Below, piece after piece: positions 21,663 to 38,858 of a DNA stretch of 64,000 bases. The translations under genes and the position numbers were made by a program. Under the pieces are notes generated by a model that was given only the letters and a program-made list of their open reading frames with translations, was not told the origin of the DNA and did not search any database. The first letter of the stretch is position 1, and each line of letters begins with the position of its first letter. This DNA is from an uncultured Acidobacteriaceae bacterium (GTDB lineage: Bacteria; Acidobacteriota; Terriglobia; Terriglobales; Acidobacteriaceae), in NCBI GenBank assembly GCA_963791085.1, contig CAWBQG010000003.1, positions 119,447-183,446 of the forward strand, written 5' to 3'.

Positions 21663-21872
21663 TTACGTCGTGACCAGATATTTTTCGGGAGCGCCATCCC
21701 CCGCCGGTTCTTCTTCCCGCGCCGGCTCCAGCACATTGCGCGATTCAGCGATGCCGTTCTCAGCGGCGGTTTCGATCAGCTCCTCGAGAATGTCATCATC
21801 CTGTTTTTCCAGGTCCGCTTTCCACTCTGCTTCTTCTTCCAGATTCCAGGGCCACACCGCTGTTCTGTCCAT
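21663..21872 (-). CDS. small acidic hypothetical protein
   Basis: The ATG at 21872 is preceded by GGAGGAGG. The 69-aa product is very acidic (MDRTAVWPWNLEEEAEWKADLEKQDDDILEELIE...). It lies downstream of the acyl-CoA ligase. Confidence 0.45.
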   Translation of the reverse strand: MDRTAVWPWNLEEEAEWKADLEKQDDDILEELIETAAENGIAESRNVLEPAREEEPAGDGAPEKYLVTT

Positions 21873-21989
21873 CTTGAACCTCCTCCACTGCGGTTTCGAC
21901 GATCTTTCTTGAGTTATCCGGCACCCGAGTTTCATGTGTCCGACATGAGTAATGGCTTTTGAAGTTAGAGCAAACGACGAAATCACGTT

Positions 21990-23762
21990 CTATGCCACTG
22001 TGGCAACTTCCGCTTCCTCGTATAAGTCATCGATCTGCTTTCGATAACGTTCTTCGACGATCTTGCGGCGAAGTTTCAACGTTGGCGTAAGACTGCCGTC
22101 GTCTGTGCTGAATTCATCCGCCACCACCAGCACCTTTTTCAATGTTTCGTAACGGGCAAGCTTCTGGTTTACTTCCTGAACAATGCCGTCATAGAGAGTC
22201 TGAACTTTCGGGTTGCCAACCAATTCCCGCCGCGACGAGAAAGAGATATGGTTGGCGCGCGCCCAATCCTCAAGCAGACTAAAGCACGGAGAAATAATTA
22301 CCGACGCGAATTTCCTCCGGTCCCCCACCACCACTGCGGTTCCGATCAGAGCGTTCAGCTTGAGGGAATTCTCAACCGGTTGGGGCGCGATAAACTTCCC
22401 GCCCGAGGTCTTGAGCAAGTCTTTCTTACGATCGGTGACCGATAGAAATCCATCCTCATCCAGCATCCCGATATCCCCGGTTTTGAACCAGCCATCCACA
22501 AACGCGCTCCTGGTTTCCTCCGGGCGGTTCCAGTACGCTCGAAAGACCGAGGGACCGCGCACCAGAATTTCATGGTCTTCCGCGATCTGCACTTCGACAT
22601 TCGAGAGAAGCCGGCCCACTGTGCCCAGTTTGTGGGCGCGCGGCGTGTTCACGGCAATTACAGGCGAAGTTTCTGTCAGGCCGTATCCTTCGTGAATGCG
22701 GATCCCAATGCTCGCATACCACGCGGCCAGTTCACTGCCCAGAGGCGCTCCGCCCGAAACAAATACTTCAACGTTGCCGCCCATTCGCGCTCGCACCTGC
22801 GAATAGACCAACTTATTCGCCAGTTTCCAACTTAGAGACGTCGGCACCTCGCCTGCCAGGACCCTGTGTGCATGCGCACGGCCCACCGCGAGCGCCCAAC
22901 GGTAGATCGCTCGTTTGGGGAATTTCTTGGCCTTCTGTTCAACCTGGCCGTAAATTTTTTCGTAAACGCGCGGCACGCCCACGAAAAGCGTAGGCATCAC
23001 CTCCATAAGAGTCTGTGGCAGGTGTTCGAAGAAGGGGCAGTAGGCCAGAGTTACGCCGTGGTAGAGCAGCGCGAAATCGGCATGACGCGCGGTTACGTGC
23101 GACAGCGGCAAAAACGAAACACTGATCTGCCCAGGGTGAACATTGAAGCCCTCAAGCGAGCACAGAATGTTCGAGGTCAAATTTCCGTGCGTGAGCTGCA
23201 CCCCTTTAGAGATGCCCGTTGTTCCCGAGGTGTAAATGATGGATGCCAGGTCGTCTGCGGCGACGGCGCGCGCGCACGCATCCAGATCGGGGTCGAATTC
23301 AGCTGAACCTTCCTCCATTAACCGGCGCATGGGCGCCGCATCGGCAGTGTCCAGTGCATCCATCACCACTACCCGTTCCACCGCCGTCTGGTCCTTGATG
23401 GAAAGGACTTTCTTCAATTGTGCCTCGGTGGAAACGACCACAACCTTCGCCCCGGAATCGCACAAAATGTAGGCTGTCTGCTGAGCGGTCAAGGTGGCAT
23501 AGATGGGAACAACCGCAACGCCCAGTTGAAAAGATGCGAAGTCCGCTACGGCCCACTCCGGCCGATTCTCACTCAGGATCGCGAGCCGGTCTCCTTTCGT
23601 CAGCCCCCACTTGCGGAGCCCTCGCGCCACGCCCGCCACATGCCGATAGAACTGGCGCGAACTGACGGGAGTCCATCGGCCCGACTCACGAGTCAGCATC
23701 ACCCGCTCGTGCCTGCGGTCCACAATCGCCGAAAAGATGTCGTTAAGGGTTCGAGGCGTCAT
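21990..23762 (-). CDS. long-chain fatty acid-CoA ligase (AMP-dependent synthetase)
   Basis: 590 aa with AMP-binding motifs: IIYTSGTTGISKGV, GYGLTETS, TGDIG, GKFIAPQ. Confidence 0.9.
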   Translation of the reverse strand: MTPRTLNDIFSAIVDRRHERVMLTRESGRWTPVSSRQFYRHVAGVARGLRKWGLTKGDRLAILSENRPEWAVADFASFQLGVAVVPIYATLTAQQTAYILCDSGAKVVVVSTEAQLKKVLSIKDQTAVERVVVMDALDTADAAPMRRLMEEGSAEFDPDLDACARAVAADDLASIIYTSGTTGISKGVQLTHGNLTSNILCSLEGFNVHPGQISVSFLPLSHVTARHADFALLYHGVTLAYCPFFEHLPQTLMEVMPTLFVGVPRVYEKIYGQVEQKAKKFPKRAIYRWALAVGRAHAHRVLAGEVPTSLSWKLANKLVYSQVRARMGGNVEVFVSGGAPLGSELAAWYASIGIRIHEGYGLTETSPVIAVNTPRAHKLGTVGRLLSNVEVQIAEDHEILVRGPSVFRAYWNRPEETRSAFVDGWFKTGDIGMLDEDGFLSVTDRKKDLLKTSGGKFIAPQPVENSLKLNALIGTAVVVGDRRKFASVIISPCFSLLEDWARANHISFSSRRELVGNPKVQTLYDGIVQEVNQKLARYETLKKVLVVADEFSTDDGSLTPTLKLRRKIVEERYRKQIDDLYEEAEVATVA

Positions 23763-23852
23763 ATAGCAGACCTCCCTCGCTGTGAAACTCCCGACAAGTC
23801 GCTTTTCATGAGCGCACCTCAGCGACTTATGGCTCTATCAGTGCCCAATAGG

Positions 23853-24548
23853 CTACTTCAAATGCCCCCAGCGGAACGTCGGTCCCGTGGAGAATCGCCA
23901 ATAGTTCTGCCGGGATGCCAGAATGTTAGAAAACAAATGCGTATTCACATAGTCAGTGGCAAACCGCCATCCTAGTGGCCGCGTTATGTTGATATCGAAC
24001 CCGCCGCCCAAGCCAACGAATAGCTGGGTGTCAGTCTGGTGGGAGCTGGGAACAGGGATATTAAGTACGTCGAACAGAGTGCCCAACCCCAACGGGAAAG
24101 TGATGTTTGCCACCTCGTGAATTCCGCCCAGGCCGGGACGCGCAAAAAACGTAACTCTATCCCACTTCCGAAAATAAAACTGCGGGCCGGCGGCGAAAGT
24201 ATATGTCGTTGATCGGAACGGCACGTTAATCGAGCTTGCGCCACCAGGTACCAATCCCGACTGGTTAATCGCACCTGCATAGACCGTTTCGCTTCCATTG
24301 ATGGTCCCGGCGCCACTGATCACAGAGTCGCCGATAGCGCTGAAATCCCCGCCCAGGCCAAGCCATGGTTTCACCGTGACGCCGAAATCACCTTCGAACC
24401 CACGTTCCGTCAAGTTTCTGGCCGGGCTGATCAGGTAATCGAATCCCGTAAAAAGCGTATAGCGGTTAATATCAGTCCGCTGGGCCAAAGCAGGCAGACA
24501 CAAAATAATTGCGAGGCTGCAAAACACCGCACACGGTATTGCTTTCAT
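23853..24548 (-). CDS. outer-membrane beta-barrel protein (small porin/OmpW-size)
   Basis: 231 aa with a signal peptide (MKAIPCAVFCSLAIILCLPALAQ) and an alternating beta-strand pattern rich in G/F/Y. Confidence 0.7.
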   Translation of the reverse strand: MKAIPCAVFCSLAIILCLPALAQRTDINRYTLFTGFDYLISPARNLTERGFEGDFGVTVKPWLGLGGDFSAIGDSVISGAGTINGSETVYAGAINQSGLVPGGASSINVPFRSTTYTFAAGPQFYFRKWDRVTFFARPGLGGIHEVANITFPLGLGTLFDVLNIPVPSSHQTDTQLFVGLGGGFDINITRPLGWRFATDYVNTHLFSNILASRQNYWRFSTGPTFRWGHLK

Positions 24549-24580
24549 GCTCCACCTCAGGAGATTTATCTATTAAATGA

Positions 24581-26167
24581 CTAAGCAACGACTAAGTCTG
24601 CTGCCGGATCGTTTATCTTACTTGTTGACACTGGTTCCGCGACTCGTTGTGCGCGCCGTACTGGCCGACTGGGCGCTGTTCCAACTGCCGCAAATGCGGT
24701 TTGTGCCGCTGCGTCCGGCGCTGCCTTCCGCCTTCGGGCTGTGCGCTTCTTTTCCGGCGGCTTGATCCCGGCGGCATCGCGCAGTTCACCGAAGCTCTCT
24801 TCAAGCAATATCTCCAGCTTCCGCAAATCCGGCGCTGCCTGCGCATCTCCGCTGAAACCGAAGTACGCCATTCCGTTGTAACTCAAAATGGCGCAATTGA
24901 CGGCCATCTCGCCTCCGACCGGAACATACGGATAGCAATGCAGCATTTTGTGTCCGAACAGATAAAGCGGCCACTGCGGACCGGGCACATTCGTGCAGAC
25001 CAGATTGAAAGGTGTGATCGGCAACCGGCTCGCCAGTGGCCCCATCAATCCCTGCACCGAGGTCGGAAACATGCCGATCAATCCTCCGGCCAAACTTACT
25101 AACTCGGCGGCATGCACTCGCTTGAGAAATTCGGTTCGCTTGTGTGCCGCAGCAAGCAAGTGTAGCGGCCGGCGGATATCCAGCGGAATGGTAACTGGAA
25201 CCAGCGAGATCCGATTGCCGAGTTCCGACGGGCTGCTTTTCCCCCGCAGGCTGACTGGGACCATGATGCGCAGCAATCTCCCCTTCACGCTATCGCCATG
25301 TAACTCGCAGTAGCGCCGAATCGTCGCCGTGACGATCGCGAGAATGACGTCGTTTACGCTGGTCTTACATTTGTGCCGGATGGCTTTGATCTCCTCGAGC
25401 GGAATCTGAGTGAAACAGAACTTCTGCGGTCCCTGGTAAAGAACGTTGAACCGTAGCCGCTCCGTAAACGCCGTGAGTTCAGGGAACAGGCCGGCAAACT
25501 CGCGAGTGTCCAGGTCGCTGCCGTTGGCCGCCGCGCGCTCCGCCATGCTTAGCAGATCGCCCAGCGCCGAGAGAATTCGTTTGAGAAAGTCCGAATATGT
25601 CTCCACAAACCCCGTTGTAAGTGACGTCAGTGGGTCGCGAGGCGGCGGAACACGGAATTTAAGCTTTTTTCTGGGAAGACGCGGCGCTTCCGGGTTCGCA
25701 TCCAGAAGTACGTTCATGATACCCACGCCGGCGATTCCATCGGCCAGGCAGTGGTGCAACCGGAAGATAAGTGCGCTCCGACCGCCTTTTAATCCCCTCA
25801 CAAGCGTGATATCCCATAACGGGTGTTGTCGATCCATTACCGTGCCGAAAAGTTTTCCGGCCAGCGTTTTCAGTTCCGTGTCGGTGCCGTGTTTGAGTCT
25901 TACTTCACGCACATGGCGGTCGAGTGCAAAATTTGGATCGTACTCCCAGGTGGGGAGACCCAGGCCGAAAGGCGCGGGCACCACACGTTTCAGATAACGC
26001 GGCAGGAGCGGCAGCTTCGACTCGATAAACTGAACGCAGTCTGCAAATGAAACTTCACCTTCGAACACGCAGATGCTCGCCACATTGAGCGGCATGCCTT
26101 CCCGCTCCAGATGCAGGAAGACCGTGTCCCCCCAGGAAAGGCGGTCGCTCTGTTGATCGTTCTGCAT
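24581..26167 (-). CDS. wax ester synthase/diacylglycerol acyltransferase (WS/DGAT) family protein
   Basis: 528 aa with the catalytic HHxxxDG motif (RLHHCLADGIAG) and a downstream NVPGP motif. The Lys/Arg/Ala-rich C-terminal tail of about 65 aa is unusual. Confidence 0.9.
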   Translation of the reverse strand: MQNDQQSDRLSWGDTVFLHLEREGMPLNVASICVFEGEVSFADCVQFIESKLPLLPRYLKRVVPAPFGLGLPTWEYDPNFALDRHVREVRLKHGTDTELKTLAGKLFGTVMDRQHPLWDITLVRGLKGGRSALIFRLHHCLADGIAGVGIMNVLLDANPEAPRLPRKKLKFRVPPPRDPLTSLTTGFVETYSDFLKRILSALGDLLSMAERAAANGSDLDTREFAGLFPELTAFTERLRFNVLYQGPQKFCFTQIPLEEIKAIRHKCKTSVNDVILAIVTATIRRYCELHGDSVKGRLLRIMVPVSLRGKSSPSELGNRISLVPVTIPLDIRRPLHLLAAAHKRTEFLKRVHAAELVSLAGGLIGMFPTSVQGLMGPLASRLPITPFNLVCTNVPGPQWPLYLFGHKMLHCYPYVPVGGEMAVNCAILSYNGMAYFGFSGDAQAAPDLRKLEILLEESFGELRDAAGIKPPEKKRTARRRKAAPDAAAQTAFAAVGTAPSRPVRRAQRVAEPVSTSKINDPAADLVVA

Positions 26168-26209: not shown

Positions 26210-26491
26210 TCAGTTCTCGAAAGAAAAGCGCCGCGTCAATTTCATCAGCTTGAGCACTTTATAAACCTCAACGTTCACGGCGCGTAAGACGACCCTGACC
26301 CCTACCGCGTCAGCCCTTCGGATAAACTCTTCCATCGCGCGGAGCGTGCTCGAATCCACCCGGCGCACGGCAGAGAAATCCACAATCAAGTCCCCGGTCG
26401 CGGCGTCGAGCTTTTCTCCGGCCTCTCGCAAAACCGCGGCCACGCGCTTTTCATCGATCTTTAACGACATCGCAATCATCGACATATGCAC
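26210..26491 (-). CDS. STAS domain protein (anti-sigma-antagonist/MlaB-like fold)
   Basis: 93 aa (DFSAVRRVDSSTLRAMEEFIRRADAVGVRVVLRAVNVEVYKVLKLMKL). It starts 8 nt after the adhE stop. Confidence 0.7.
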   Translation of the reverse strand: MHMSMIAMSLKIDEKRVAAVLREAGEKLDAATGDLIVDFSAVRRVDSSTLRAMEEFIRRADAVGVRVVLRAVNVEVYKVLKLMKLTRRFSFEN

Positions 26492-29166: not shown

Positions 29167-29447
29167 TACTGCCTCCCTTCCGAACTGCGGGGAACCTCGC
29201 CGGCGTGAGCGCGTCTACTTGGAAATCAAATGTCCGAAGTAAAATGCCGGCGTCGAATCTTCGTCTATGACGGCGGCACTAATCTCTTGATCGCCTCAAA
29301 GCGCAAAATTACAAGGGATTAGCGACAGCGTGTGAGGAAAGTTCGGCGATGCAGATTCCGGGGCTCCGGCGGGCACCATACGTCAGCCTCGCTACCAAAG
29401 TAGAGCCCCTTCGGTGGAGTTGGTCTACAACGTGTGTCACACCTGAA

Positions 29448-29463
29448 TGTGACTATTATCACG
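29448..29463. promoter_or_regulatory. CRP/FNR-family-like site TGTGA-N6-TCACG in the adhE upstream region
   Basis: 'tgtgactattatcacg' matches TGTGA-N6-TCACA at 9/10 positions, about 290 nt upstream of the adhE ATG. Confidence 0.25.
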
Positions 29464-29542: not shown

Positions 29543-29557
29543 TGCTGCGGTGCAGCA
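29543..29557. promoter_or_regulatory. PhaR-type palindromic operator TGCTGC-ggt-GCAGCA (adhE leader/promoter region)
   Basis: Perfect 6+3+6 palindrome, identical in its arms to the sites at both phasin-like promoters. It lies 377 nt upstream of the adhE ATG. Confidence 0.5.
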
Positions 29558-29642: not shown

Positions 29643-29655
29643 GCTGCAATGCAGC
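29643..29655. promoter_or_regulatory. second, shorter palindrome GCTGC-aat-GCAGC upstream of adhE
   Basis: Same 5+3+5 core as the 15-mers, 100 nt further upstream. Confidence 0.35.
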
Positions 29656-32586: not shown

Positions 32587-33513
32587 TCAGGCGGTCGCCG
32601 CGACCGGAGGCTTTCTGGTGGCCCGCACTGGACGCTTGGCGCTCCGCTCCGTCTTGCCCGTTCGCGCGTGTCCATTCACAGGCCTTACGACGGCATCCAT
32701 CACTGCCCGCTGCGCGTCCACGTAGCTCTTCACAGTCTCCCGCGCCAACTCGCCCAGTGGGACGAACGGGAACGGCTGCAGAAGGTCCAGGGTCTTGCCT
32801 GCAGTTTTCACATAGGCGTTCATTTGCTGCCCTGCAACGTCGGCCAGCTTCTTTTGGGCCTCGATGAACGAGTCTGTCGCCTGTCGCGCAATCTCCGCCA
32901 GTTCGGTCTTCTTCATCTTCTTCGCACCGTTGGCGCTCTTCCCGCGGGTTGCGTTGGAGGTCTCTTCGGCGATCACGTCCAGAAAACGCTTCTGCGCCTT
33001 GACGAAGGTCTCCATGCTTTCGCGGGCCAGATCCACCACGTGCTCCGGCTGGTATGGCTTGCGGGCTTTGGCGGCCTCCACCCAGACATGATTCTGCTTG
33101 CCGGCGATCTTCAGGAACCCCTCTTGCATCTCAATGAAGGTGTCCACGCTGCGCCGCAGCAGATCAATGGCGGCATGGCGCCGCGGGCACTCGCCGATAC
33201 GTTCCTTGACCCCGGTCATCAGAATTTCGTTCTGCTCCTTGCCGAGATCGAGAAGCACCTTCTGTCCTTCGAGAAAGTTTTCCATGCCCTCGCCCGCCAT
33301 TTCGTTGAGGATGGTCGTGGGCGAACGATGGGGATCCGATAGTTGCTGCCGCAGGACGTCCATCACGCTGGCATTCTGCCGCATCGCCAGATCCAGCAGG
33401 ATCCGCTGCGTGCCGAAGAAAGCCTGTGCTCCCTGCTGCGCCCAACCGGAAAGAAGCGACAACACCGACGCTTCCTTTTGCGGAGTGGGTTCGTGCTTTG
33501 TTGCCGCTGCCAT
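32587..33513 (-). CDS. phasin-like repeat protein (paralog 1)
   Basis: 308 aa with six copies of an amphipathic motif, x-F-x3-Q-x3-L-D (e.g. ENFLEGQKVLLDLGKEQ, ETFVKAQKRFLDVIAEE, DSFIEAQKKLADVAGQQ), and a basic C-terminal tail. It is divergent from phaR and preceded by a strong promoter plus a palindromic operator. Confidence 0.7.
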   Translation of the reverse strand: MAAATKHEPTPQKEASVLSLLSGWAQQGAQAFFGTQRILLDLAMRQNASVMDVLRQQLSDPHRSPTTILNEMAGEGMENFLEGQKVLLDLGKEQNEILMTGVKERIGECPRRHAAIDLLRRSVDTFIEMQEGFLKIAGKQNHVWVEAAKARKPYQPEHVVDLARESMETFVKAQKRFLDVIAEETSNATRGKSANGAKKMKKTELAEIARQATDSFIEAQKKLADVAGQQMNAYVKTAGKTLDLLQPFPFVPLGELARETVKSYVDAQRAVMDAVVRPVNGHARTGKTERSAKRPVRATRKPPVAATA

Positions 33514-33528: not shown

Positions 33529-33543
33529 TGCTGCGTTGCAGCA
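33529..33543. promoter_or_regulatory. PhaR-type palindromic operator TGCTGC-gtt-GCAGCA at the phasin-like gene 1 / phaR divergent region
   Basis: Perfect palindrome, 8 nt downstream of the -10 of the phasin-like promoter and just upstream of its RBS. Confidence 0.65.
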
Positions 33544-33551: not shown

Positions 33552-33580
33552 ACTATACGAGGTCAAGGGACTTGTGTCAA
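33552..33580 (-). promoter_or_regulatory. sigma70-like promoter of phasin-like gene 1 (TTGACA-N17-TATAGT)
   Basis: On the minus strand: 'ttgaca' (33575-33580), a 17-nt spacer, 'tatagt' (33552-33557). Confidence 0.55.
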
Positions 33581-33623: not shown

Positions 33624-34157
33624 ATGAAGCCTTCCGCAGTCGTCATCAAGAAATACGGGAATCGCCGCTTGTACGACACCACTGGCAGCCGCTACGTCAA
33701 CCTCGACGACCTGGCCGCGCTCGTTCGAGCAGGTCAGGAGGTCCGCGTCGTCGATGCGAAAACCGGCCAGGACCTGACCCGCGTCACGCTGACGCAAATC
33801 ATTACCGAGGACGCTAAGGATAAGCCGACCGGCCTGCCGCTCGAACTGTTGCGTCAGTTGATCATCGCCTCCGATGAAGTGCGGCAGGAATTCCTCATGT
33901 GGTATCTGAAATCCGCGTTTGACACCTACGAGAAGGTGCATGATACGGTGCAGCACCGCTTGAGTGAAGTTCAGTCCGCCATCCTCTCTCCGGTAGACAT
34001 GATGAAGCGCTTCCTCGGTACAGCGGTGCCATCGTCTCCGCAAGCCGGCGTGGAGCCCGAAGTGGATGCCCTGCGCAAGCGGGTCGCGGAACTCGAGGCG
34101 CGACTGGAAAAGCCCGCGCGCGGCAAAGGCAAACGTAAATCCCGCAAGAAGCGTTGA
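33624..34157 (+). CDS. phaR: polyhydroxyalkanoate synthesis repressor PhaR
   Basis: 177 aa with a PhaR N-terminal DNA-binding signature (IKKYGNRRLYDT..S.YV.L.DL) and a basic tail (GKGKRKSRKKR). Confidence 0.9.
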   Translation: MKPSAVVIKKYGNRRLYDTTGSRYVNLDDLAALVRAGQEVRVVDAKTGQDLTRVTLTQIITEDAKDKPTGLPLELLRQLIIASDEVRQEFLMWYLKSAFDTYEKVHDTVQHRLSEVQSAILSPVDMMKRFLGTAVPSSPQAGVEPEVDALRKRVAELEARLEKPARGKGKRKSRKKR

Positions 34158-34315: not shown

Positions 34316-35128
34316 TTGCAGCGCAAACAGAAAAGGACAACAAAACGTCATTCAACGATCGGACAGCGCAGGCGTCCTCGTCGGCAACTCCGCCCGGAAG
34401 CGAACACCTCCCTCTGGACCGAGGCGCTGCTCGGAGCTGAAATCCTCATCCTTCACGCCGCTCCTGTGTTCTACGGCCTGGGCGTGCCGCACGGCGATGG
34501 CTCCGCGGTTGTCATCATTCCCGGGTTTCTCGGCACCGATCTCTACCTGACGGAGCTGCATGCATGGCTGCGCCGCATTGGATACCAGCCGTATTTTTCC
34601 GGGATCGGCATGAATGCAGAATGTCCGAACCTGCTCATCCAGCGCCGTCTGAATCAGACCATCGACAGGGCGTTGGCCGAGACGGGGCGCAAGATTCATC
34701 TGATTGGCCATAGCCTGGGAGGAGTCATCGCCCGCTCGGTGGCGGGCGAGCGGCCGAACGATGTTGCTTCAGTAATTACCCTGGCTGCGCCCATCCGCGG
34801 CATGGTTGCGAATCGCGCTGTTCGCCGCGCCGCCGAAGCTGTTCGCCTCCGCATTCTTGAGGAGCACGGCCGAGGCGTGCTGCCCGATTGTTACACCGGC
34901 CAATGTACCTGCAATTTCCTGAATTCGCTCCGTCGCAAAGTCCCCGCCGCGATGGGCGAGACCGCCATTTTCACACGCAACGACGGCGTTGTGGACTGGC
35001 GCAACTGTCTGACGAGAGACCCTGAAAAAGACGTGGAAGTCCCCGGCACTCACATCGGAATGGCATTCAATCCAGCGGTATATGCGGTGGTCGCCGAGCG
35101 GCTGGCCCGGGCGCATTCGGCCGGGTAG
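34316..35128 (+). CDS. alpha/beta hydrolase (lipase/esterase-like)
   Basis: Nucleophile elbow GHSLGG, with an upstream PGFLGTD loop. The first available start is TTG 34316, giving a very basic N-terminus. The real start is uncertain. Confidence 0.75.
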   Translation: MQRKQKRTTKRHSTIGQRRRPRRQLRPEANTSLWTEALLGAEILILHAAPVFYGLGVPHGDGSAVVIIPGFLGTDLYLTELHAWLRRIGYQPYFSGIGMNAECPNLLIQRRLNQTIDRALAETGRKIHLIGHSLGGVIARSVAGERPNDVASVITLAAPIRGMVANRAVRRAAEAVRLRILEEHGRGVLPDCYTGQCTCNFLNSLRRKVPAAMGETAIFTRNDGVVDWRNCLTRDPEKDVEVPGTHIGMAFNPAVYAVVAERLARAHSAG

Positions 35129-35147: not shown

Positions 35148-36089
35148 TCAGCCAACCATCTCCAGCACCGCGCCGGCGGTGGTTTCTAAACTTTCTGCCG
35201 GTGCGCCCGCAATCTCAATAACAAGCGACGCCGATGCCAGGCTGTTGTTCAGGACCTCGAACGCGCTCGTGCAATCAGTCTTTAAATAAGGAAGGCGATG
35301 CAGGCTCGGACCGCGTCCGTCAATCGAAGCTTCCAGGCGGAGCCCATTTCGTCCGCCGCAGCGAAAATTCCACTGCATGCCGGTGCGGATGTCGCCGTGT
35401 TCCCGCAAATCGCGGAGGACATGCTTCTCGCCACCGTGCCAGAGCACCGCTTTGCGGAATACCAGTCCAAATGGCATCTCGTAGACCAGGGCCTCAAACG
35501 TGGTTGCGGGCCGGCCGGCGCGAGGAAAATATGCGTGGGTCCAGGTCCAGAAGTTGCGATGCCGGTATCCGCAGTTGTGTCCCTGCAAGCCGAACCCGAG
35601 CGCGTCGCCCGCAAAGCTCCAGCCGTCCAGCGTGATCTCGCCGGAAAAAATCGCATCGGAGTGCGGCGTCCGCGAAAAGCCAATCCAGCCTTTGTTGCTC
35701 AACGTCACACGAAACGTGGAACGGTAACGCAGGTTCCAGCCGATCGTATGCCCGTCGACCACCAGCGCTCCCCGGCACGAGTCTTCTTCGATGCCGTTTT
35801 CGCCAACGTGAAACTGAAAGGGAGCCTGTCCTCTTCGGCTGAGGTCTAGCGACTGCAGCGGAAATCCCTGAATGAAGCTCTGCGGCTGCCCGCCCGCCGG
35901 AAACCATGTCGCCCACACCTGCACGGGCATTCCGCGCGGATTTCCGGCGCAGCCGCCGCGCCCGGGATTCATCAGCAAGTAACGAAACCACCAGGCGCCG
36001 CTGCCGTCGGCCAGTCCCATACGAAGAAACCAGACTTCATAGCGGCGCCGAACCGACAATGACGAAAATACTTCGTTTAGAGTGGCCAA
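35148..36089 (-). CDS. hypothetical protein, tentatively tocopherol-cyclase-like family
   Basis: 313 aa (TTG start). From memory, it resembles tocopherol cyclases: an N-terminal YEVWFLR...WWFRYLLMNP (cf. FFEGWY.R...F.YS.ENP), a central GHNCGYRHRNFWTWTHAYF (cf. EKNWG..FP..W.W.Q.N.F), and a C-terminal TAGAVLEMVG. The family call needs an HMM search. Confidence 0.5.
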   Translation of the reverse strand: MATLNEVFSSLSVRRRYEVWFLRMGLADGSGAWWFRYLLMNPGRGGCAGNPRGMPVQVWATWFPAGGQPQSFIQGFPLQSLDLSRRGQAPFQFHVGENGIEEDSCRGALVVDGHTIGWNLRYRSTFRVTLSNKGWIGFSRTPHSDAIFSGEITLDGWSFAGDALGFGLQGHNCGYRHRNFWTWTHAYFPRAGRPATTFEALVYEMPFGLVFRKAVLWHGGEKHVLRDLREHGDIRTGMQWNFRCGGRNGLRLEASIDGRGPSLHRLPYLKTDCTSAFEVLNNSLASASLVIEIAGAPAESLETTAGAVLEMVG

Positions 36090-36221: not shown

Positions 36222-37889
36222 ATGCTGGATGCGTCCGCCATCGCCGCGGGCTTTGGCCAGCTCGCCCCCGGCCAGTTGCGCGCCGCCCTCGAGAGCTTCT
36301 TGCCCCAGGGCGTCCCGGCCGCCGATAAAGTCAGCGTCATCGAAACCGGCCTGCGCAGCCCTGCCGGCCAGGCCATGCGCGACGTAATGGCGCGATGGAT
36401 CGTCGATGAAATCGTTCCGGTGGATACGCTCGTTCCCGAAGCTTATGTCAAGTGGCGTCCGCCTGTAAGGGACGCCATGATGTTTGTGGTGGCGCGACTT
36501 TCCCCGGCGCGCCTCGCCCCAAAACTTCTGGAGCAGATTGATCTTCCCGCCAACACGCTGGCCGAAGTGCGGCTGCTGCGCTTGATCGCGAAGGTGCCGG
36601 GCCTGCAAAAGCTGGGCCAGGTTATCGCGCGCAATCAGCATCTTCATCCGGCTCTGCGCAAGGCGCTTGCCCGGCTCGAAAACGGGATTCGCGACGTCCG
36701 GCCGGAACAGATTCATGCCATCATTCAGCGCGATCTGGGGAAGAGGATCGAAACGTACGCCATCGAGATCGCCCCTGCCATCCTCTCGGAGGCCAGCGTC
36801 AGCGCGGTTGTGCGCTTCAGCTGGCGAAATCCCGAGACCGGACGCCGCCAGCGTGGCGTCTTCAAAGTCCTGAAGCCTCACATCCCCGAGTATTTCGCCG
36901 AAGACATGGACTATCTGCAAGGGCTGGCCCAATATTTCGGAGATCGGCACCACCGCTATGGATTTCCTGCGCACCTCATTCCTGATACCTTCCGCAAAGT
37001 CCGGCGCTTGCTCCGGCACGAAGTCAATCTTGTCCGCGAACAGAAGACGCTGGTCGAAGCGGAAACTCTCTATCGGTCGATGCCCGGTGTTCGTGTGCCG
37101 CAGGTGATCGCCCCTTTGTGCGCGCCCACCATCACAGCGCTCACTGAGGAACGCGGGATCAAGGTAACGAGCGCGGCCGCCCGCTTGCCTGTCGCGCGCC
37201 GCCGAAAAGTGGCCGAGCAGCTCATCGAAGCTCTCGTCGCCGTGCCTTTGTTTGCGGCCACGCCCGATGCGATCTTCCACGGCGATCCTCATGCCGGCAA
37301 CCTGCTCTACAACAACCGCACCGGCGATTTGGTCATCCTCGACTGGGCCCTGCGGGAGCGACTGGGCCGCGAGCAGCGCCGGCATCTGGCGCTCCTGTTT
37401 CTGATGGTCAGCTTGCGCGATCCTCTCGGCGCCAGCGCCGCGATCGGCGCGCTCAGTCAGCAGCCCACAAGAATGCATTCGACTCGGGGAAAAATGCTGC
37501 GCCAGTCGGTAACGGAATTTCTGGGCGAGATGCCGCCCTCCCATTTGCCCAGTGCCGCCGACTCCATGCGCCTTCTCGAACGGGTCGCGATGAAAGGCGT
37601 CAGGTTTCCCGCCTCGCTCGTCATGCTGTCAAAGGTGATGTTCACGCTCGAAGGCATACTGGCCGACATCGTTGGGTCGGACACGGGTATGGGCTTCGCC
37701 ATCGCGCGTCGCGTCGCCCGCCGCTGGCTTGCCAATCGCTCCGCGTTCCGCTCGCCGCTCCGAACACGGGACTGGCTGACGCTGCAGTGCAGCGCGTTGC
37801 TCTACACCAGCCGCCTGTGGATCGATTGGGAGCAAGCGATGCTGAGGCGTTTTCTGACACACCGTTCCAAAGCGTTGCCAGCTGCCTGA
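36222..37889 (+). CDS. ABC1/UbiB (AarF) atypical kinase family protein
   Basis: 555 aa with ABC1 motifs: VFKVLKP, FHGDPHAGNLLY, ILDWA. Confidence 0.9.
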   Translation: MLDASAIAAGFGQLAPGQLRAALESFLPQGVPAADKVSVIETGLRSPAGQAMRDVMARWIVDEIVPVDTLVPEAYVKWRPPVRDAMMFVVARLSPARLAPKLLEQIDLPANTLAEVRLLRLIAKVPGLQKLGQVIARNQHLHPALRKALARLENGIRDVRPEQIHAIIQRDLGKRIETYAIEIAPAILSEASVSAVVRFSWRNPETGRRQRGVFKVLKPHIPEYFAEDMDYLQGLAQYFGDRHHRYGFPAHLIPDTFRKVRRLLRHEVNLVREQKTLVEAETLYRSMPGVRVPQVIAPLCAPTITALTEERGIKVTSAAARLPVARRRKVAEQLIEALVAVPLFAATPDAIFHGDPHAGNLLYNNRTGDLVILDWALRERLGREQRRHLALLFLMVSLRDPLGASAAIGALSQQPTRMHSTRGKMLRQSVTEFLGEMPPSHLPSAADSMRLLERVAMKGVRFPASLVMLSKVMFTLEGILADIVGSDTGMGFAIARRVARRWLANRSAFRSPLRTRDWLTLQCSALLYTSRLWIDWEQAMLRRFLTHRSKALPAA

Positions 37890-37934: not shown

Positions 37935-37972
37935 GTCATCCCGACCGGAGCGAAGCGGAGTGGAGGGACCTC
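37935..37972 (+). repeat. family C-related unit 'gtcatcccgaccggagcgaagcggagtggagggacctc'
   Basis: It shares the gtcat-...-agcgaagc- pattern with 9111..9140. Confidence 0.5.
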
Positions 37973-38039
37973 GTGTCTTCAACGACTCTCATTCTTGATG
38001 AGGCCCCTTCAATATGCCGATTATCTCCGGGGTACTACA

Positions 38040-38792
38040 TTACGCCGGCACAACCTTGGGCCGGCGAACTGCGCGCCGCTGGCTGTGTTTGGCCTTGGCC
38101 ACGACCTTCCTGCCCGGCTTGACAAGCTCCCCGATCCGGGACGCCTCCTTCTCGACAAAGTTCTTCACGCTTTCGCTGGTGAGGTTCGCCATCGGCAGCA
38201 AGCGGGAAGGCGACATCATTTCGGCCGTTCGAGTGGCCACGTCCAGGTTGACGTTCATCTGCTGGCCCACGACGTCGAGCAGCCTTTTCTGCGCCTCGAC
38301 AAAGGCGTTTCCTGCTTCGCGAGCCAGTTGCGTCAGTTCGGTTTTTTTCGCAGTCTTGCCGTCGTGCTCGTGCTTGCCCCGCGTCGCTTTCGCGGTTTCC
38401 TGCGCCACCACGTCGAGGAACTTTTTTTGCGCGCGCGTAAAGGTCTCGACCCCCTCGCGGGCAAACTCCACCAACTGGGCCGAGCGCGATCCCTTGGCTC
38501 CCTTTTCCGGCTCCAGCATCCGGAGCGCCTGTTTGCTGGTGGTGGTCAGCAGCTCTTGCTGCATCCCGATGAGTGTATCGAGGCCCCGCCGTACAAGATC
38601 GGTCGCTGCAACCGCCGGCAGAAAGCCGCCGACTCGTTCTTTTACACCGTTGAAGATGATGTCGTTCTCTTGTTGTGCCAGGTTAAGAAGAGTGCGCTGC
38701 GTTTCCACAAGGCTCGATGTTCCCTCGACGGCCAGCTCAGTCAACAACGACAGAGGCGAGTGCCCATTGTGGAGATTGGTATGGGTCGGCAT
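38040..38792 (-). CDS. phasin-like repeat protein (paralog 2)
   Basis: ATG at 38792 (MPTHTNLH). It is collinear with 32587..33513 (ETFTRAQKKFLDVVAQETAKATRGK...KKTEL...AFVEAQKRLLDVVGQQMN) and has a basic tail. It has the same promoter/operator architecture. Confidence 0.7.
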   Translation of the reverse strand: MPTHTNLHNGHSPLSLLTELAVEGTSSLVETQRTLLNLAQQENDIIFNGVKERVGGFLPAVAATDLVRRGLDTLIGMQQELLTTTSKQALRMLEPEKGAKGSRSAQLVEFAREGVETFTRAQKKFLDVVAQETAKATRGKHEHDGKTAKKTELTQLAREAGNAFVEAQKRLLDVVGQQMNVNLDVATRTAEMMSPSRLLPMANLTSESVKNFVEKEASRIGELVKPGRKVVAKAKHSQRRAVRRPKVVPA

Positions 38793-38806
38793 AAGTGCCC
38801 TCCAAA

Positions 38807-38821
38807 TGCTGCAATGCAGCA
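38807..38821. promoter_or_regulatory. PhaR-type palindromic operator TGCTGC-aat-GCAGCA at phasin-like gene 2
   Basis: Perfect palindrome, again exactly 8 nt downstream of the -10 and just upstream of the RBS. Confidence 0.65.
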
Positions 38822-38829
38822 TTGACACT

Positions 38830-38858
38830 AATATAGTATTCGCGCCGCTGCCCGTCAA
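38830..38858 (-). promoter_or_regulatory. sigma70-like promoter of phasin-like gene 2 (TTGACG-N17-TATATT)
   Basis: On the minus strand: 'ttgacg' (38853-38858), a 17-nt spacer, 'tatatt' (38830-38835). Confidence 0.55.

What the first reader, a model, noticed from the sequence alone, without database searches (positions are those of the whole stretch)
21663..38858. 17-kb candidate neutral-lipid inclusion-body system: PhaR plus phasin-like coat proteins wired to a wax-ester/TAG pathway, with no PHA synthase in view
Seen in sequence: one contiguous block holds three functional groups. (a) A tight minus-strand array adhE - STAS - WS/DGAT - small OM beta-barrel - long-chain acyl-CoA ligase - small acidic protein, with gaps of 8, 42, 32, 90 and 117 nt. 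(b) A secreted CHI-like (fatty-acid-binding-fold) protein, a patatin lipase and an alpha/beta hydrolase. (c) phaR, two paralogous phasin-like repeat proteins, a tocopherol-cyclase-like protein and an ABC1/UbiB kinase. The same perfect 15-bp palindrome marks both phasin-like promoters and the adhE leader (separate finding). Established knowledge: WS/DGAT enzymes make wax esters and triacylglycerol, which are stored in cytoplasmic lipid bodies. PhaR and phasins are known as the regulator and coat of PHA granules. Inference: the PhaR/phasin logic here may control and coat a neutral-lipid body rather than, or in addition to, a PHA granule. In that reading the block also encodes uptake/activation (OMP, ligase), synthesis (AdhE?, WS/DGAT), mobilisation (patatin, hydrolase) and droplet-associated regulation (ABC1 kinase). 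I know of no described bacterial system with this combination, but I cannot search the literature here.
Basis: partly seen in the sequence, partly recalled or inferred. Interest (0 to 1): 0.8.

Follow-up and report, generated by a model that had tools for sequence, protein, structure and literature searches.

The report
PhaR-phasin-like module tied to wax-ester genes
In uncultured soil and peat Acidobacteria, the repressor and coat-protein logic known from bioplastic (PHA) granules sits next to wax-ester/fat-making genes in about a hundred independent genomes and contigs, with no PHA synthase nearby, which suggests an undescribed kind of bacterial fat-droplet system.

Summary
The block encodes FACL, OMP, WS/DGAT (HHCLADG intact), STAS, a true AdhE, CHI-like, patatin, PhaR, a lipase-like hydrolase, an ABC1 kinase and two paralogous six-helix amphipathic proteins (Phl1, Phl2) that match no Pfam family. 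The "tocopherol cyclase" label is unsupported: a weak model suggests an AttH/CrtC-like fold.

The palindrome TGCTGC-N3-GCAGCA contains the published PhaR operator core TGCRNYGCA. It lies 8 nt after strong -35/-10 boxes of both Phl genes. An exact copy is found in 104 of 105 related loci, essentially only at Phl promoters.

The window comes from a Terriglobales MAG. In 80 species-level relatives, PhaR|Phl1 and the lipase-like gene are invariant neighbours, and AdhE-STAS-WS/DGAT lies within 10 kb in 58 of 73 full-flank loci. A clade only 26-30% identical carries a compact PhaR | Phl-GNAT-WS/DGAT-lipase module in 7 of 7 loci.

No PhaC-type catalytic box occurs in the 1.83 Mb examined, but whole genomes could not be searched.

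A PhaR box upstream of adhE is lineage-specific (4 of 67). The adhE leader instead carries a conserved CRP/FNR-like site.

Best reading: a PhaR-sensed, phasin-like-coated neutral-lipid body. It is a new variant of a known logic and is untested experimentally.

The parts
21663..21872 (-). Small acidic ORF (about 70 aa from the internal Met). Not a conserved member of the system.
   Evidence: Translation. No Pfam hit. Found in only 2 of 80 related loci, and there in a different orientation.
21990..23762 (-). Long-chain-type acyl-CoA ligase (FACL). Inferred to activate fatty acids.
   Evidence: AMP-binding E=2e-77 plus AMP-binding_C_3. Present in 38/80 loci, usually after the OMP gene. The OMP-FACL pair also lies near PhaR|Phl in the distant locus L087.
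23853..24548 (-). Small outer-membrane beta-barrel with a signal peptide. Inferred uptake channel for hydrophobic substrates.
   Evidence: OMP_b-brl at 28.9 bits against a cutoff of 28.7. Present in 35/80 loci, directly after WS/DGAT. No PDB sequence match.
24581..26167 (-). [quoted passage not shown]
   Evidence: WS_DGAT_cat E=2e-45 and WS_DGAT_C E=2e-27. Aligns to Marinobacter WS/DGAT 6CHJ (E=4e-36) with HHCLADG at the HHxxxDG catalytic motif. Present in 58/73 full-flank loci.
26210..26491 (-). Single-domain STAS protein, always between AdhE and WS/DGAT. Role unknown; could be a partner-switching or lipid-binding adaptor.
   Evidence: STAS E=5e-11. Weak anti-sigma antagonist and MlaB similarities. 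Present in 59/73 full-flank loci, 15-40 nt from its neighbours.
26500..29166 (-). Bifunctional AdhE (CoA-acylating aldehyde dehydrogenase plus Fe-alcohol dehydrogenase). Inferred supplier of the alcohol for ester synthesis, or recycler of it.
   Evidence: NCBIfam PRK13805 equivalog, 1147 bits against a cutoff of 951. Pfam Aldedh + Fe-ADH. 84-90% identical orthologues in 59/73 full-flank loci.
29437..29463 (-). Conserved CRP/FNR-type composite site YGTGA-N6-TCACA-N6-YGTGA in the adhE leader, about 290 nt before the ATG.
   Evidence: Sequence. YGTGA-N6-TCACR lies upstream of adhE in 42/66 loci, mostly at 287-313 nt. That is 43 of the 71 occurrences in 1.59 Mb. It sits in a conserved block of about 110 nt. 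No Rfam match.
29543..29557 (.). PhaR box TGCTGCGGTGCAGCA, 377 nt upstream of the adhE ATG. A second, weaker box (GCTGCAATGCAGC) lies at 29643-29655.
   Evidence: A box at a similar distance (326-377 nt) from adhE occurs only in L009, L010 and L017 among 67 adhE loci.
29873..30160 (-). 95-aa ORF of unknown function, specific to this genome.
   Evidence: Called as a gene in the NCBI MAG. No Pfam or NCBIfam hit. Absent from the 80 relatives.
30353..30913 (-). Secreted CHI-like (Chalcone_3) protein. Accessory.
   Evidence: Chalcone_3 E=9e-51. N-terminal signal-like sequence. Found only in this genome's own contigs L001/L002, and in 0/80 relatives.
31082..32344 (+). Patatin-like lipase. Accessory.
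   Evidence: Patatin E=4e-18. Present next to Phl1 in 16/80 loci.
32587..33513 (-). Phl1, a phasin-like protein with six long amphipathic helices and a basic disordered tail.
   Evidence: No Pfam family above threshold; PHA_synth_III_E E=3.7e-4. AF2 gives pLDDT 64 with helices 17-57, 65-106, 110-149, 156-190, 202-244 and 253-276. Hydrophobic moments 0.33-0.53, z=1.5-3.6. 2470 homologues, all annotated 'hypothetical'. 6/38 diverse members weakly hit Phasin_2.
33147..33161 (.). Intragenic near-palindrome CGCTGCGCCGCAGCA inside Phl1 (codons LLRRS).
   Evidence: A near-palindrome at this position was seen in 56 of the related loci. In the 61 relatives where the DLLRRS codons could be located, codon usage there is constrained: Leu CTG 85% against 43% elsewhere, and Ser always AGC/AGT.
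33529..33543 (.). PhaR operator in the divergent Phl1/phaR intergenic region.
   Evidence: Exact TGCTGCGTTGCAGCA. Contains the TGCRNYGCA core of the published PhaR sites. Lies 16 nt before the Phl1 ATG and 81 nt before the phaR ATG. An exact box is present in 104/105 loci.
33552..33580 (-). Sigma-70-type promoter of Phl1, TTGACA-17-TATAGT.
   Evidence: 11/12 match, ending 8 nt before the operator. The same layout is seen in L019, L096 and 8/8 distant loci.
33624..34157 (+). PhaR-type repressor.
   Evidence: PHB_acc_N E=1.4e-27, 96 bits. TIGR01848 at 97.1 bits, below the equivalog cutoff of 109.45. No PHB_acc (PF05233) hit. Divergent neighbour of Phl1 in all 80 relatives and in every distant locus that includes the sequence upstream of Phl.
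34316..35128 (+). Lipase-like alpha/beta hydrolase (GHSLGG box). Start codon uncertain.
   Evidence: PGAP1, Palm_thioest, LCAT and LIDHydrolase-type hits. Nearest PDB sequences are family I bacterial triacylglycerol lipases, E about 1e-6. Present in 65/65 full-flank loci and in the distant modules.
35148..36089 (-). 313-aa all-beta protein of unknown function. Possibly an AttH/CrtC/kievitone-hydratase-like fold.
   Evidence: No Pfam or NCBIfam hit. 2598 homologues, 75-82% identical. AF2 pLDDT is only 51. Foldseek gives 7A0Q at E=7.5e-7 and 2ICH at 1e-5, TM about 0.4. Present in 58/65 loci.
36222..37889 (+). ABC1/UbiB atypical kinase.
   Evidence: ABC1 E=4e-25. Present in 46/65 loci. Also follows the lipase gene in distant locus L090.
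38040..38792 (-). Phl2, a paralogue of Phl1 that lacks the first helix.
   Evidence: 41% identical to Phl1. TIGR01841 phasin E=0.043. Present in 42/65 loci.
38807..38821 (.). PhaR operator of Phl2.
   Evidence: Exact TGCTGCAATGCAGCA, 15 nt before the ATG. A box lies 12-16 nt before the Phl2 ATG in most relatives that carry Phl2; a few lie at 26 nt.
38830..38858 (-). Sigma-70-type promoter of Phl2, TTGACG-17-TATATT.
   Evidence: 10/12 match, ending 8 nt before the operator.

Best explanation
This is a storage-lipid (wax-ester and/or triacylglycerol) body system of uncultured Terriglobales. It re-uses the PhaR/phasin logic of PHA granules.

Shown here:
- A PhaR-family repressor gene sits divergently next to Phl1.
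- Both Phl genes have strong sigma-70-type promoters whose transcription start is covered by a PhaR-type operator.
- Phl1 and Phl2 are abundant-type amphipathic helical-repeat proteins remotely related to phasins.
- This core (PhaR, Phl, lipase-like hydrolase, often ABC1 kinase and a 313-aa beta protein) is genomically welded to a WS/DGAT array. The array is AdhE-STAS-WS/DGAT-OMP-acyl-CoA ligase, usually with an acyl-CoA dehydrogenase, a GMC oxidoreductase and ETF genes.

Inferred:
- The ligase makes acyl-CoA from fatty acids taken up through the OMP or recycled.
- AdhE reduces acyl-CoA to the alcohol. In one distant lineage a 'male-sterility' (NAD_binding_4) reductase and an aldehyde dehydrogenase lie beside the module where AdhE lies here, and may do that job.
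- WS/DGAT esterifies the alcohol, or diacylglycerol, with acyl-CoA.
- The nascent hydrophobic droplet titrates PhaR off its operators, so Phl1 and Phl2 are made in proportion to droplet surface and coat it.
- The basic tails of the Phl proteins may tether droplets to the nucleoid.
- The lipase-like hydrolase (plus patatin in some genomes), the GMC oxidoreductase, AdhE running in reverse, and ACAD/ETF mobilise the store.
- ABC1 acts as a droplet-associated regulator, as on cyanobacterial and plastid lipid droplets.
- The synthesis array normally has its own CRP/FNR-type control. In this genome it additionally carries PhaR boxes.
For: Family assignments.

Operator:
- Exact boxes at 29543, 33529 and 38807, against 0.3 expected.
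- They contain TGCRNYGCA, the core of the R. eutropha motif YTKNTGCRNYGCANMAR (PMC12849132) and of the S. meliloti motif YGCRNYGCR (PMC12542648).
- The boxes start 8 nt after the TATAGT and TATATT -10 hexamers.
- The same -35/-10/box/SD/ATG layout is seen in L019, L096 and 8/8 loci of 26-31% identical homologues.
- An exact box is present in 104/105 loci, 1-3 per locus, at Phl promoters.

Synteny:
- 313 species genomes encode a Phl relative.
- In the best 80: PhaR 80/80 and ABhyd 77/80. In full-flank loci: WS/DGAT 58/73, AdhE 59/73, STAS 59/73.
- At least 9 of the 15 'negative' loci show the array starting just beyond the 10-kb flank.
- Only about 7-9% of Acidobacteriota genomes carry WS/DGAT at all (PMC10351704; bioRxiv 10.1101/2024.12.02.626346).

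Independent clade:
- PhaR | Phl-GNAT-WS/DGAT-lipase in 7/7 loci long enough, flanked by housekeeping genes.
- L090 has PhaR | Phl-lipase-ABC1 next to a NAD_binding_4 reductase (E=4e-43) and an aldehyde dehydrogenase.

Phl properties:
- Six amphipathic helices and a basic tail.
- Weak Phasin_2, PHA_synth_III_E and ApoB100_C similarities within the family.

No PHA genes:
- None in the window.
- No G-x-C-x-G-G box in any ORF of 250 aa or more across 1.83 Mb.

Precedents:
- PhaR binds hydrophobic surfaces non-specifically (Yamashita 2006, cited in PMC3570403).
- A Rhodococcus ruber phasin was isolated from lipid inclusions (PMC5658603).
- In Rhodococcus, lipid droplets titrate the repressor MLDSR of the coat protein MLDS (PMC5504291).
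- ABC1 kinases and a DGAT are on cyanobacterial lipid droplets (PMC12223511).
Against: - No experiment exists, and no cultured strain with the module was found.
- phaC elsewhere in these genomes could not be searched, so a PHA granule as the true or additional target remains possible.
- Phl1 and Phl2 do not reach any phasin model threshold. Foldseek finds only generic coiled-coil and BAR hits.
- PhaR scores below the NCBIfam equivalog cutoff and lacks a detectable PHB_acc domain.
- In 63 of 67 adhE loci no PhaR box precedes the adhE-WS/DGAT array, so direct co-regulation is not general.
- In L096 a strong terminator-like hairpin follows Phl, so read-through into WS/DGAT is not assured.
- AdhE is an ordinary acetaldehyde/ethanol-type AdhE by sequence. 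Its chain-length preference is unknown.
- Many neighbours (ACAD, GMC, ETF, lipases) are catabolic.
Confidence: 0.55

Rival explanations
1. A catabolic island for exogenous hydrophobic esters and alcohols (plant wax, cutin or suberin derived). Substrates enter via the OMP. The lipase and patatin split them. The GMC oxidoreductase and AdhE (alcohol to aldehyde to acyl-CoA) oxidise them, and ACAD/ETF burn them. The Phl proteins act as apolipoprotein-like solubilisers or buffers of hydrophobic substrate rather than as coats of a dedicated storage organelle. WS/DGAT only buffers transient excess.
For: - The conserved neighbours are largely catabolic: ACAD in 51/80 loci, GMC oxidoreductase in 32/80, plus ETF and Fe-S oxidoreductase.
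- Family I lipase-like hydrolase.
- Malate synthase and isocitrate lyase lie near the module in L087/L088.
- Some Phl relatives weakly hit ApoB100_C.
Against: - The compact distant module holds only PhaR, Phl, GNAT, WS/DGAT and lipase, with no catabolic genes.
- WS/DGAT is a synthetic enzyme with an intact active site.
- The Phl proteins have no signal peptide.
- Storage and mobilisation genes are expected to co-localise anyway, so this rival overlaps with the main model.
Confidence: 0.2
2. An ordinary PHA-granule regulatory module (PhaR plus divergent phasins) whose PHA synthase lies elsewhere in the genome. The lipid genes are neighbours because medium-chain PHA is fed from fatty-acid beta-oxidation (ligase, ACAD, enoyl-CoA hydratase).
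For: - PhaR domain, PhaR-type operator and weak phasin similarities.
- A MaoC dehydratase is seen near one distant module.
- phaC could not be searched genome-wide.
- A few Acidobacteria do carry class III PhaC (PMC8312272).
Against: - No PhaC-type box in 1.83 Mb around 105 modules.
- The enzyme that is repeatedly welded to PhaR|Phl is WS/DGAT, in two clades that are 26-30% identical.
- PHA was not detected, and the PHA pathway was incomplete, in all 50 Acidobacteriota MAGs of another study (PMC8100337). Those belonged to other classes.
- The lipase-like partner resembles TAG lipases, not PHA depolymerases.
Confidence: 0.15
3. The palindrome is not a protein operator. It is a 5'-terminal RNA hairpin (6-bp stem, 3-nt loop) that stabilises the mRNA or controls translation of the Phl mRNAs. 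PhaR adjacency is incidental.
For: - The element starts at about +1 of the transcript and lies 15-46 nt before the ATG.
- The arm changes TGCTGC/GCAGCA to TACTGC/GCAGTA are compensatory.
- A similar codon-constrained element lies inside Phl1.
Against: - It matches the experimentally defined PhaR core TGCRNYGCA.
- It always sits beside phaR, in the shared divergent region.
- Compensatory change is equally expected for a dimer-binding DNA palindrome.
- Known PhaR sites also cover the transcription start and occur inside phasin ORFs (PMC12849132).
Confidence: 0.05

Closest known systems
PhaR-PhaP (phasin) circuit of PHA granules (Cupriavidus necator, Paracoccus denitrificans, Sinorhizobium meliloti)
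   Same: - A PHB_acc_N DNA-binding regulator, divergent from or adjacent to the coat-protein gene.
- An operator palindrome with the TGCRNYGCA core that covers the promoter and transcription start.
- An intragenic site in the coat gene.
- Amphipathic helical coat proteins in several paralogues.
   Different: - No PHA synthase in any neighbourhood.
- The linked polymer or ester-forming enzyme is WS/DGAT.
- The regulator scores below the PhaR equivalog cutoff and has no PHB_acc domain hit.
- The coat proteins are 250-310 aa six-helix repeat proteins that fail the phasin HMM thresholds.
- A lipase-like hydrolase takes the place of PhaZ.
MLDS/MLDSR of Rhodococcus jostii RHA1 lipid droplets (PMC5504291)
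   Same: - A neutral-lipid droplet with a major coat protein that carries a basic C-terminal DNA-binding tail.
- A repressor with a palindromic operator whose effective concentration is set by sequestration on droplets.
- This is the same logic as proposed here.
   Different: - The proteins are unrelated: MLDSR is an XRE-type HTH, and MLDS is not phasin-like.
- The host is an actinobacterium.
- No WS/DGAT, AdhE or lipase genes are welded to that operon.
Wax-ester pathways of Marinobacter and Acinetobacter (fatty acyl-CoA reductase plus WS/DGAT)
   Same: - WS/DGAT with the HHxxxDG motif (6CHJ is the best PDB match).
- An acyl-CoA ligase and an acyl-CoA-reducing step encoded nearby.
   Different: - The reductase here is a canonical AdhE. 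A FAR-type NAD_binding_4 enzyme appears only in a distant lineage.
- No dedicated coat protein or droplet-sensing regulator is known in those gammaproteobacteria (my own knowledge).
Cyanoglobules / plastoglobules (PMC12223511)
   Same: ABC1-family kinases and a DAG-acyltransferase-type enzyme are associated with a prokaryotic lipid droplet, together with lipid-modifying enzymes.
   Different: - No fibrillin or PG18 homologue was seen.
- The 313-aa protein is not a recognisable tocopherol cyclase.
- Regulation here is by PhaR.
- The organism is a non-photosynthetic heterotroph.
Engineered fatty-acid ethyl ester ('microdiesel') pathway: FadD + AtfA + an ethanol-forming enzyme (my own knowledge; see review PMC3896788, listed but not read)
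   Same: The same three activities (acyl-CoA ligase, WS/DGAT, alcohol-forming dehydrogenase) are encoded together.
   Different: Here the array is natural and conserved. The alcohol product of this AdhE is unknown.

Membership tests
PhaR (PHA synthesis repressor) | N-terminal PHB_acc_N DNA-binding domain | tested here: met
   PF07879 E=1.4e-27, 96 bits against a cutoff of 25.
PhaR (PHA synthesis repressor) | Scores above the NCBIfam TIGR01848 equivalog cutoff | tested here: not met
   97.1 bits against a cutoff of 109.45.
PhaR (PHA synthesis repressor) | PHB_acc (PF05233) repeat domain after the DNA-binding domain | tested here: not met
   No hit even at E<=10.
PhaR (PHA synthesis repressor) | Palindromic operator with a TGCRNYGCA core at the phasin promoter and at its own promoter | tested here: met
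   compared with PMC12849132 and PMC12542648.
PhaR (PHA synthesis repressor) | Binds PHA granules and is released from DNA | not testable with these tools
   Needs biochemistry.
Phasins (Pfam Phasin_2 / TIGR01841 and relatives) | Significant match to a phasin HMM | tested here: not met
   Phl1 has none. Phl2 hits TIGR01841 at E=0.043, 14.3 bits against 30.2. Only 6/38 diverse relatives hit Phasin_2, best E=3.8e-5.
Phasins (Pfam Phasin_2 / TIGR01841 and relatives) | Amphipathic alpha-helical architecture | tested here: met
   Six helices (AF2, pLDDT 64). Hydrophobic moments above shuffles.
Phasins (Pfam Phasin_2 / TIGR01841 and relatives) | Expression under a PhaR operator | tested here: met
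   The operator lies at the transcription start of both genes. This is sequence evidence only.
Phasins (Pfam Phasin_2 / TIGR01841 and relatives) | Co-occurrence with a PHA synthase and location on PHA granules | tested here: inconclusive
   No PhaC-type box in 1.83 Mb of neighbourhoods. Whole genomes and protein localisation were not testable.
WS/DGAT | Both Pfam domains and the HHxxxDG catalytic motif | tested here: met
   HHCLADG aligns to HHSLVDG of 6CHJ.
AdhE (bifunctional acetaldehyde-CoA/alcohol dehydrogenase) | Full-length match above the equivalog cutoff | tested here: met
   PRK13805, 1147 bits against 951.
Tocopherol cyclase | Match to Pfam Tocopherol_cycl (PF14249) | tested here: not met
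   No Pfam or NCBIfam hit at E<=10. A low-confidence model resembles kievitone hydratase and AttH instead.
ABC1/UbiB atypical kinase | ABC1 domain above threshold | tested here: met
   PF03109 E=3.8e-25, 88.9 bits against 22.9.
Family I bacterial triacylglycerol lipases | G-H-S-x-G nucleophile elbow and sequence similarity to solved lipases | tested here: inconclusive
   GHSLGG is present. The PDB hits (1QGE, 1HQD, 1EX9) reach only E about 1e-6 over about 100 residues. The full catalytic triad was not mapped.
Actinobacterial lipid-droplet proteins (TadA/HBHA, MLDS) | Sequence homology to TadA or MLDS | not tested
No related Pfam hit was seen.

The most novel reading that the evidence does not exclude
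The PhaR | Phl | WS/DGAT | lipase module defines a previously unrecognised, PhaC-independent lipid-droplet organelle of Gram-negative soil and peat bacteria. In it a PhaR-family repressor senses neutral lipid instead of PHA. The AdhE-driven reduction of acyl-CoA to alcohols, under a CRP/FNR-type switch, makes wax-ester (or ethyl-ester) synthesis a fermentative electron sink under anoxia. That would be a bacterial counterpart of Euglena's wax-ester fermentation.
Probability: 0.15. Interest if true: 0.9.

Novelty: new variant of a known kind. Interest (0 to 1): 0.72.

Why it matters
1. Structural and regulatory proteins of neutral-lipid bodies are essentially unknown in Gram-negative bacteria. 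This module offers concrete candidates: a coat, a sensor-repressor with a defined operator, a lipase and a kinase.

2. Neutral-lipid storage in Acidobacteriota, among the most abundant soil bacteria, is described as unexplored (PMC10351704). The cluster predicts wax-ester or TAG storage in peat and soil Terriglobales, which bears on soil carbon budgets and on how bacterial neutral-lipid fatty acids are interpreted.

3. PhaR (pfam07879) has been used as a genomic proxy for PHA producers (bioRxiv 10.1101/2024.12.02.626346). In Acidobacteria that proxy may instead mark WS/DGAT systems.

4. A natural AdhE + WS/DGAT + acyl-CoA ligase operon, plus a droplet-responsive promoter/operator pair, are useful parts for lipid bioengineering.

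Tried and rejected
- Pfam and NCBIfam scans of Phl1, Phl2 and the 313-aa protein at E<=10. No phasin or tocopherol-cyclase membership.
- Profile search of the Phl family against PDB sequences. Nothing found.
- Foldseek of the Phl1 model. Only non-significant coiled-coil and BAR hits.
- AF2 of the 313-aa protein. Low confidence (pLDDT 51), so the AttH/kievitone-hydratase match is only a lead. A profile search against PDB gave nothing.
- PDB sequence searches for the OMP and the CHI-like protein. Nothing found.
- Rfam on the adhE leader. No family.
- Metagenome scan with a 16-sequence distant alignment.
- Genome-wide phaC search. It was replaced by a motif scan of all fetched DNA and by literature.
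- Search for a cultured host via cluster members. Only MAG-derived 'hypothetical proteins'.
- Rejected idea: that Phl1 is directly followed by adhE in relatives. The typical 4.1-kb gap holds an acyl-CoA dehydrogenase and a GMC oxidoreductase.
- Rejected idea: that PhaR boxes generally precede adhE.
- Rejected idea: the '+'-strand 299-aa, 330-aa, 276-aa and similar ORFs overlapping Phl1, PhaR or Phl2 are shadow ORFs with no family hits.

Full report
SOURCE AND GENE MAP

The window matches contig JBAVVY010000157.1 of MAG GCA_049697535.1. Homologues of its unknown proteins are labelled Terriglobales or Candidatus Sulfotelmatobacter, so the source is Acidobacteriota.

On the minus strand:
- acyl-CoA ligase, 21990-23762
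- small OM beta-barrel, 23853-24548
- WS/DGAT, 24581-26167. Both domains are present. HHCLADG aligns with the catalytic HHSLVDG of Marinobacter WS/DGAT 6CHJ (E=4e-36).
- STAS, 26210-26491
- a genuine AdhE, 26500-29166 (PRK13805 equivalog, 1147 bits against a cutoff of 951)

The intergenic gaps are 8, 42, 32 and 90 nt, as stated.

Further along lie:
- a 95-aa ORF, 29873-30160(-)
- a secreted CHI-like protein, 30353-30913(-)
- patatin, 31082-32344(+)
- Phl1, 32587-33513(-)
- PhaR, 33624-34157(+)
- a lipase-like alpha/beta hydrolase, 34316-35128(+)
- a 313-aa unknown, 35148-36089(-)
- an ABC1 kinase, 36222-37889(+)
- Phl2, 38040-38792(-)

The rest of the 64 kb holds no phaC, phaA or phaB.

WHAT DID NOT HOLD

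The 313-aa protein has no Tocopherol_cycl hit, nor any other family hit, even at E<=10. Its AF2 model is poor (pLDDT 51). Foldseek still ranks kievitone hydratase (7A0Q, E=7.5e-7), AttH (2ICH) and Fsa2-type pericyclases first. I therefore call it a possible AttH/CrtC-like double-barrel protein, no more.

Phl1 and Phl2 are real paralogues (41% identity), but neither reaches a phasin model threshold:
- Phl1 hits PHA_synth_III_E at E=3.7e-4.
- Phl2 hits TIGR01841 at E=0.043.
- Among 38 diverse relatives, 6 weakly hit Phasin_2 (best 3.8e-5), 5 hit ApoB100_C and 2 hit PHA_synth_III_E.

The family is at most a remote relative of phasins.

AF2 predicts six long helices and a disordered basic tail (pLDDT 64). 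The helices are amphipathic. Fold and sequence searches against PDB are uninformative. Every database copy is annotated 'hypothetical protein' and derives from metagenomes or MAGs.

THE PALINDROME IS A PhaR OPERATOR AT THE TRANSCRIPTION START

TGCTGC-N3-GCAGCA occurs exactly at 29543, 33529 and 38807. A one-mismatch copy lies inside Phl1. Only 0.3 matches are expected.

Its centre fits TGCRNYGCA. That is the conserved core of the R. eutropha consensus YTKNTGCRNYGCANMAR (PMC12849132) and of the S. meliloti motif (PMC12542648).

The only two strong sigma-70-like promoters in 29.1-39.1 kb are TTGACA-17-TATAGT (33580-33552) and TTGACG-17-TATATT (38858-38830). Each ends 8 nt before a box, and each box is followed by a Shine-Dalgarno sequence and the Phl1 or Phl2 ATG. 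The box therefore covers about +1 to +16, as does site BS2 of R. eutropha phaP1.

The same layout is present in L019, in L096 and in 8/8 loci of homologues only 26-31% identical.

An exact TRCTGC-N3-GCAGYA is found in 104 of 105 fetched loci, 1-3 per roughly 20 kb, at Phl promoters.

The Phl1 box lies in the 110-nt divergent region shared with phaR, so autoregulation is likely. That step is inferred.

COMPARATIVE GENOMICS

A scan of one genome per species found 313 genomes with a Phl1 relative. The best 80 are all uncultured Terriglobales. tblastn of the window proteins gave these counts:
- PhaR 80/80
- lipase-like hydrolase 77/80 (65/65 with a full upstream flank)
- the 313-aa protein 58/65
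- ABC1 46/65
- Phl2 42/65
- AdhE 59/73, STAS 59/73 and WS/DGAT 58/73 with a full downstream flank

At least 9 of the 15 'negatives' show OMP-ligase, or the start of adhE, at the very edge of the flank. The array is then simply a little further away.

The usual order is Phl2, ABC1, 313-aa protein, lipase, PhaR | Phl1, then an acyl-CoA dehydrogenase (51/80), a GMC oxidoreductase (32/80), a small membrane ORF, then AdhE-STAS-WS/DGAT-OMP-ligase. ETF and an Fe-S oxidoreductase are often nearby.

In this window the dehydrogenase and GMC genes are replaced by patatin, CHI-like and the 95-aa ORF. CHI-like and the small acidic ORF are essentially private to this genome.

Because only about 7-9% of Acidobacteriota genomes carry WS/DGAT at all, finding it within 10 kb in about 80% of loci is far from chance.

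AN INDEPENDENT CLADE

Homologues 26-30% identical to Phl1 were traced to contigs and to a metagenome scan.

In the P0376 clade every locus long enough (7/7) reads PhaR | Phl-GNAT-WS/DGAT-lipase-like hydrolase. After the 130-nt Phl-GNAT spacer, the gaps in L096 are 24 and 32 nt. In L096 the module is flanked by housekeeping genes (tsaD, mscS, fpg).

Other lineages show:
- PhaR | Phl-lipase (L085)
- PhaR | Phl-lipase, with OMP-ligase and glyoxylate-shunt genes nearby (L087)
- PhaR | Phl-lipase-ABC1, next to a 'male sterility' NAD_binding_4 reductase (E=4e-43) and an aldehyde dehydrogenase (L090)

In L090 a FAR-type enzyme thus lies beside the module where AdhE lies here, which favours fatty-alcohol formation as the role of that step.

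No ORF of 250 aa or more in the 1.83 Mb fetched carries a PhaC-type G-x-C-x-G-G box. The single hit is a shadow extension of hisH.

REGULATION OF THE SYNTHESIS ARRAY

Among 67 related adhE loci, only L009, L010 and L017 have a box at a similar distance (326-377 nt). All three have patatin between Phl1 and adhE. Direct PhaR control of the array is therefore lineage-specific.

The adhE leader instead contains a conserved block of about 110 nt with a composite YGTGA-N6-TCACA-N6-YGTGA element about 290 nt before the ATG (window 29437-29463). It is present in 42/66 loci and accounts for 43 of the 71 occurrences in 1.59 Mb. TGTGA-N6-TCACA is the CRP/FNR-family consensus (my own knowledge). No Rfam family matches.

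In L096 a strong terminator-like hairpin follows Phl. In L019 none does. Read-through from the Phl promoter is therefore possible but not general.

This resembles the PHA paradigm, in which synthesis genes and PhaR-controlled phasins are regulated separately.

MECHANISM

Shown: the families, the operator and promoter anatomy, and the conserved linkage.

Inferred:
1. Acyl-CoA comes from the ligase.
2. The alcohol comes from AdhE (or from a FAR-type reductase in other lineages).
3. WS/DGAT makes wax ester or TAG.
4. The growing hydrophobic surface sequesters PhaR. PhaR is reported to bind hydrophobic surfaces non-specifically (Yamashita 2006, cited in PMC3570403).
5. Phl1 and Phl2 are derepressed and coat the droplet. 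Their basic tails may bind DNA, as does the Lys-rich tail of the Rhodococcus droplet protein MLDS (PMC5504291).
6. The family-I-lipase-like hydrolase, patatin, the GMC oxidoreductase, AdhE in reverse and ACAD/ETF mobilise the store.
7. ABC1 acts as on cyanoglobules (PMC12223511).

Precedent for phasins on neutral lipid exists: the R. ruber phasin was isolated from lipid inclusions (PMC5658603).

RIVALS

(a) A mainly catabolic island for exogenous waxes and alcohols, in which the Phl proteins act as apolipoprotein-like solubilisers. Many neighbours are catabolic, but the minimal distant module has none. Confidence 0.20.

(b) A normal PHA system with phaC elsewhere. This cannot be excluded, because whole genomes could not be searched. 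The literature shows PhaC is rare in the phylum, but that evidence is indirect. Confidence 0.15.

(c) The palindrome as an RNA hairpin. This is disfavoured by the match to defined PhaR sites. Confidence 0.05.

COMPARISON AND NOVELTY

The system works like PhaR/PhaP, and like MLDSR/MLDS.

On membership: the regulator is a PhaR-family protein that is sub-equivalog and lacks PHB_acc. The Phl proteins are not members of any defined phasin family. The ester-forming enzyme is WS/DGAT, not PhaC.

My literature searches found no description of a PhaR/phasin-type module coupled to WS/DGAT. Neutral lipids in Acidobacteriota are called unexplored. I rate it a new variant of a known kind.

Interest is 0.72. 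The comparative evidence is unusually consistent and makes bacterial lipid-droplet biogenesis in Gram-negative soil bacteria directly testable. However, there is no experimental support, and the phaC question remains open.

Noticed in passing
window 29437-29463 (minus strand), and about 290 nt upstream of adhE in 42/66 related loci: A conserved CRP/FNR-type composite palindrome, YGTGA-N6-TCACA-N6-YGTGA, lies inside a conserved block of about 110 nt in the long adhE leader. It suggests that the AdhE-STAS-WS/DGAT array has its own regulator, possibly responsive to redox or oxygen. No Rfam family matches.
   Followed up: partly
window 33147-33161; same position in Phl1 orthologues of the related loci: An intragenic near-palindrome (CTGCTGCGGCGCAGC, codons LLRRS) resembles the PhaR box. 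In the 61 loci where the codons could be located, synonymous usage there is constrained: Leu CTG 85% against 43% elsewhere, and Ser always AGC/AGT. It could be an intragenic PhaR site, as predicted in R. eutropha phaP1, or an RNA element.
   Followed up: partly
window 9691-11614 (minus strand): An Hsp70/DnaK-like gene is split into two overlapping ORFs (HSP70 positions 1-250 and 262-598). This points to a frameshift, a pseudogene or an assembly error. The strong Pfam 'NAD-GH' hits on the plus strand (9814-11602) are antisense-translation artefacts of this gene.
   Followed up: partly
L090 6122-8913 (GCA_036704645.1): In a distant lineage the PhaR | Phl-lipase-ABC1 module lies next to a NAD_binding_4 ('male sterility', fatty acyl-CoA reductase-type) protein and an aldehyde dehydrogenase. 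These lie beside the module where AdhE lies in the Terriglobales loci.
   Followed up: partly
L092, L093, L095, L096 (8986-9552), L098: A GNAT acetyltransferase always sits between Phl and WS/DGAT in the compact distant module. Its role is unknown; candidates include protein acylation or another acyl transfer.
   Followed up: no
window 34317-34325, and the PhaR-lipase intergenic region of 30/80 loci: A bare TGCRNYGCA core (TGCAGCGCA) lies at the annotated TTG start of the lipase-like gene. It may be a weak PhaR site, or it may be chance. The start codon of this gene is also uncertain, since orthologues are about 240-255 aa.
   Followed up: no
L052 4080-4673 and 32 other loci, just upstream of and divergent from Phl2: A recurrent helical ORF of about 155 aa with no family match neighbours Phl2 in 33/80 relatives but is absent from the window. 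A 260-300 aa unknown (L041 7780-8679) recurs in 19 loci.
   Followed up: no
window 47108-49509 and 60902-63844: Cytochrome bd oxidase subunits I and II (a microaerobic respiration marker) and an hrcA-grpE-dnaJ heat-shock operon lie in the flanks. They appear unrelated to the finding.
   Followed up: no
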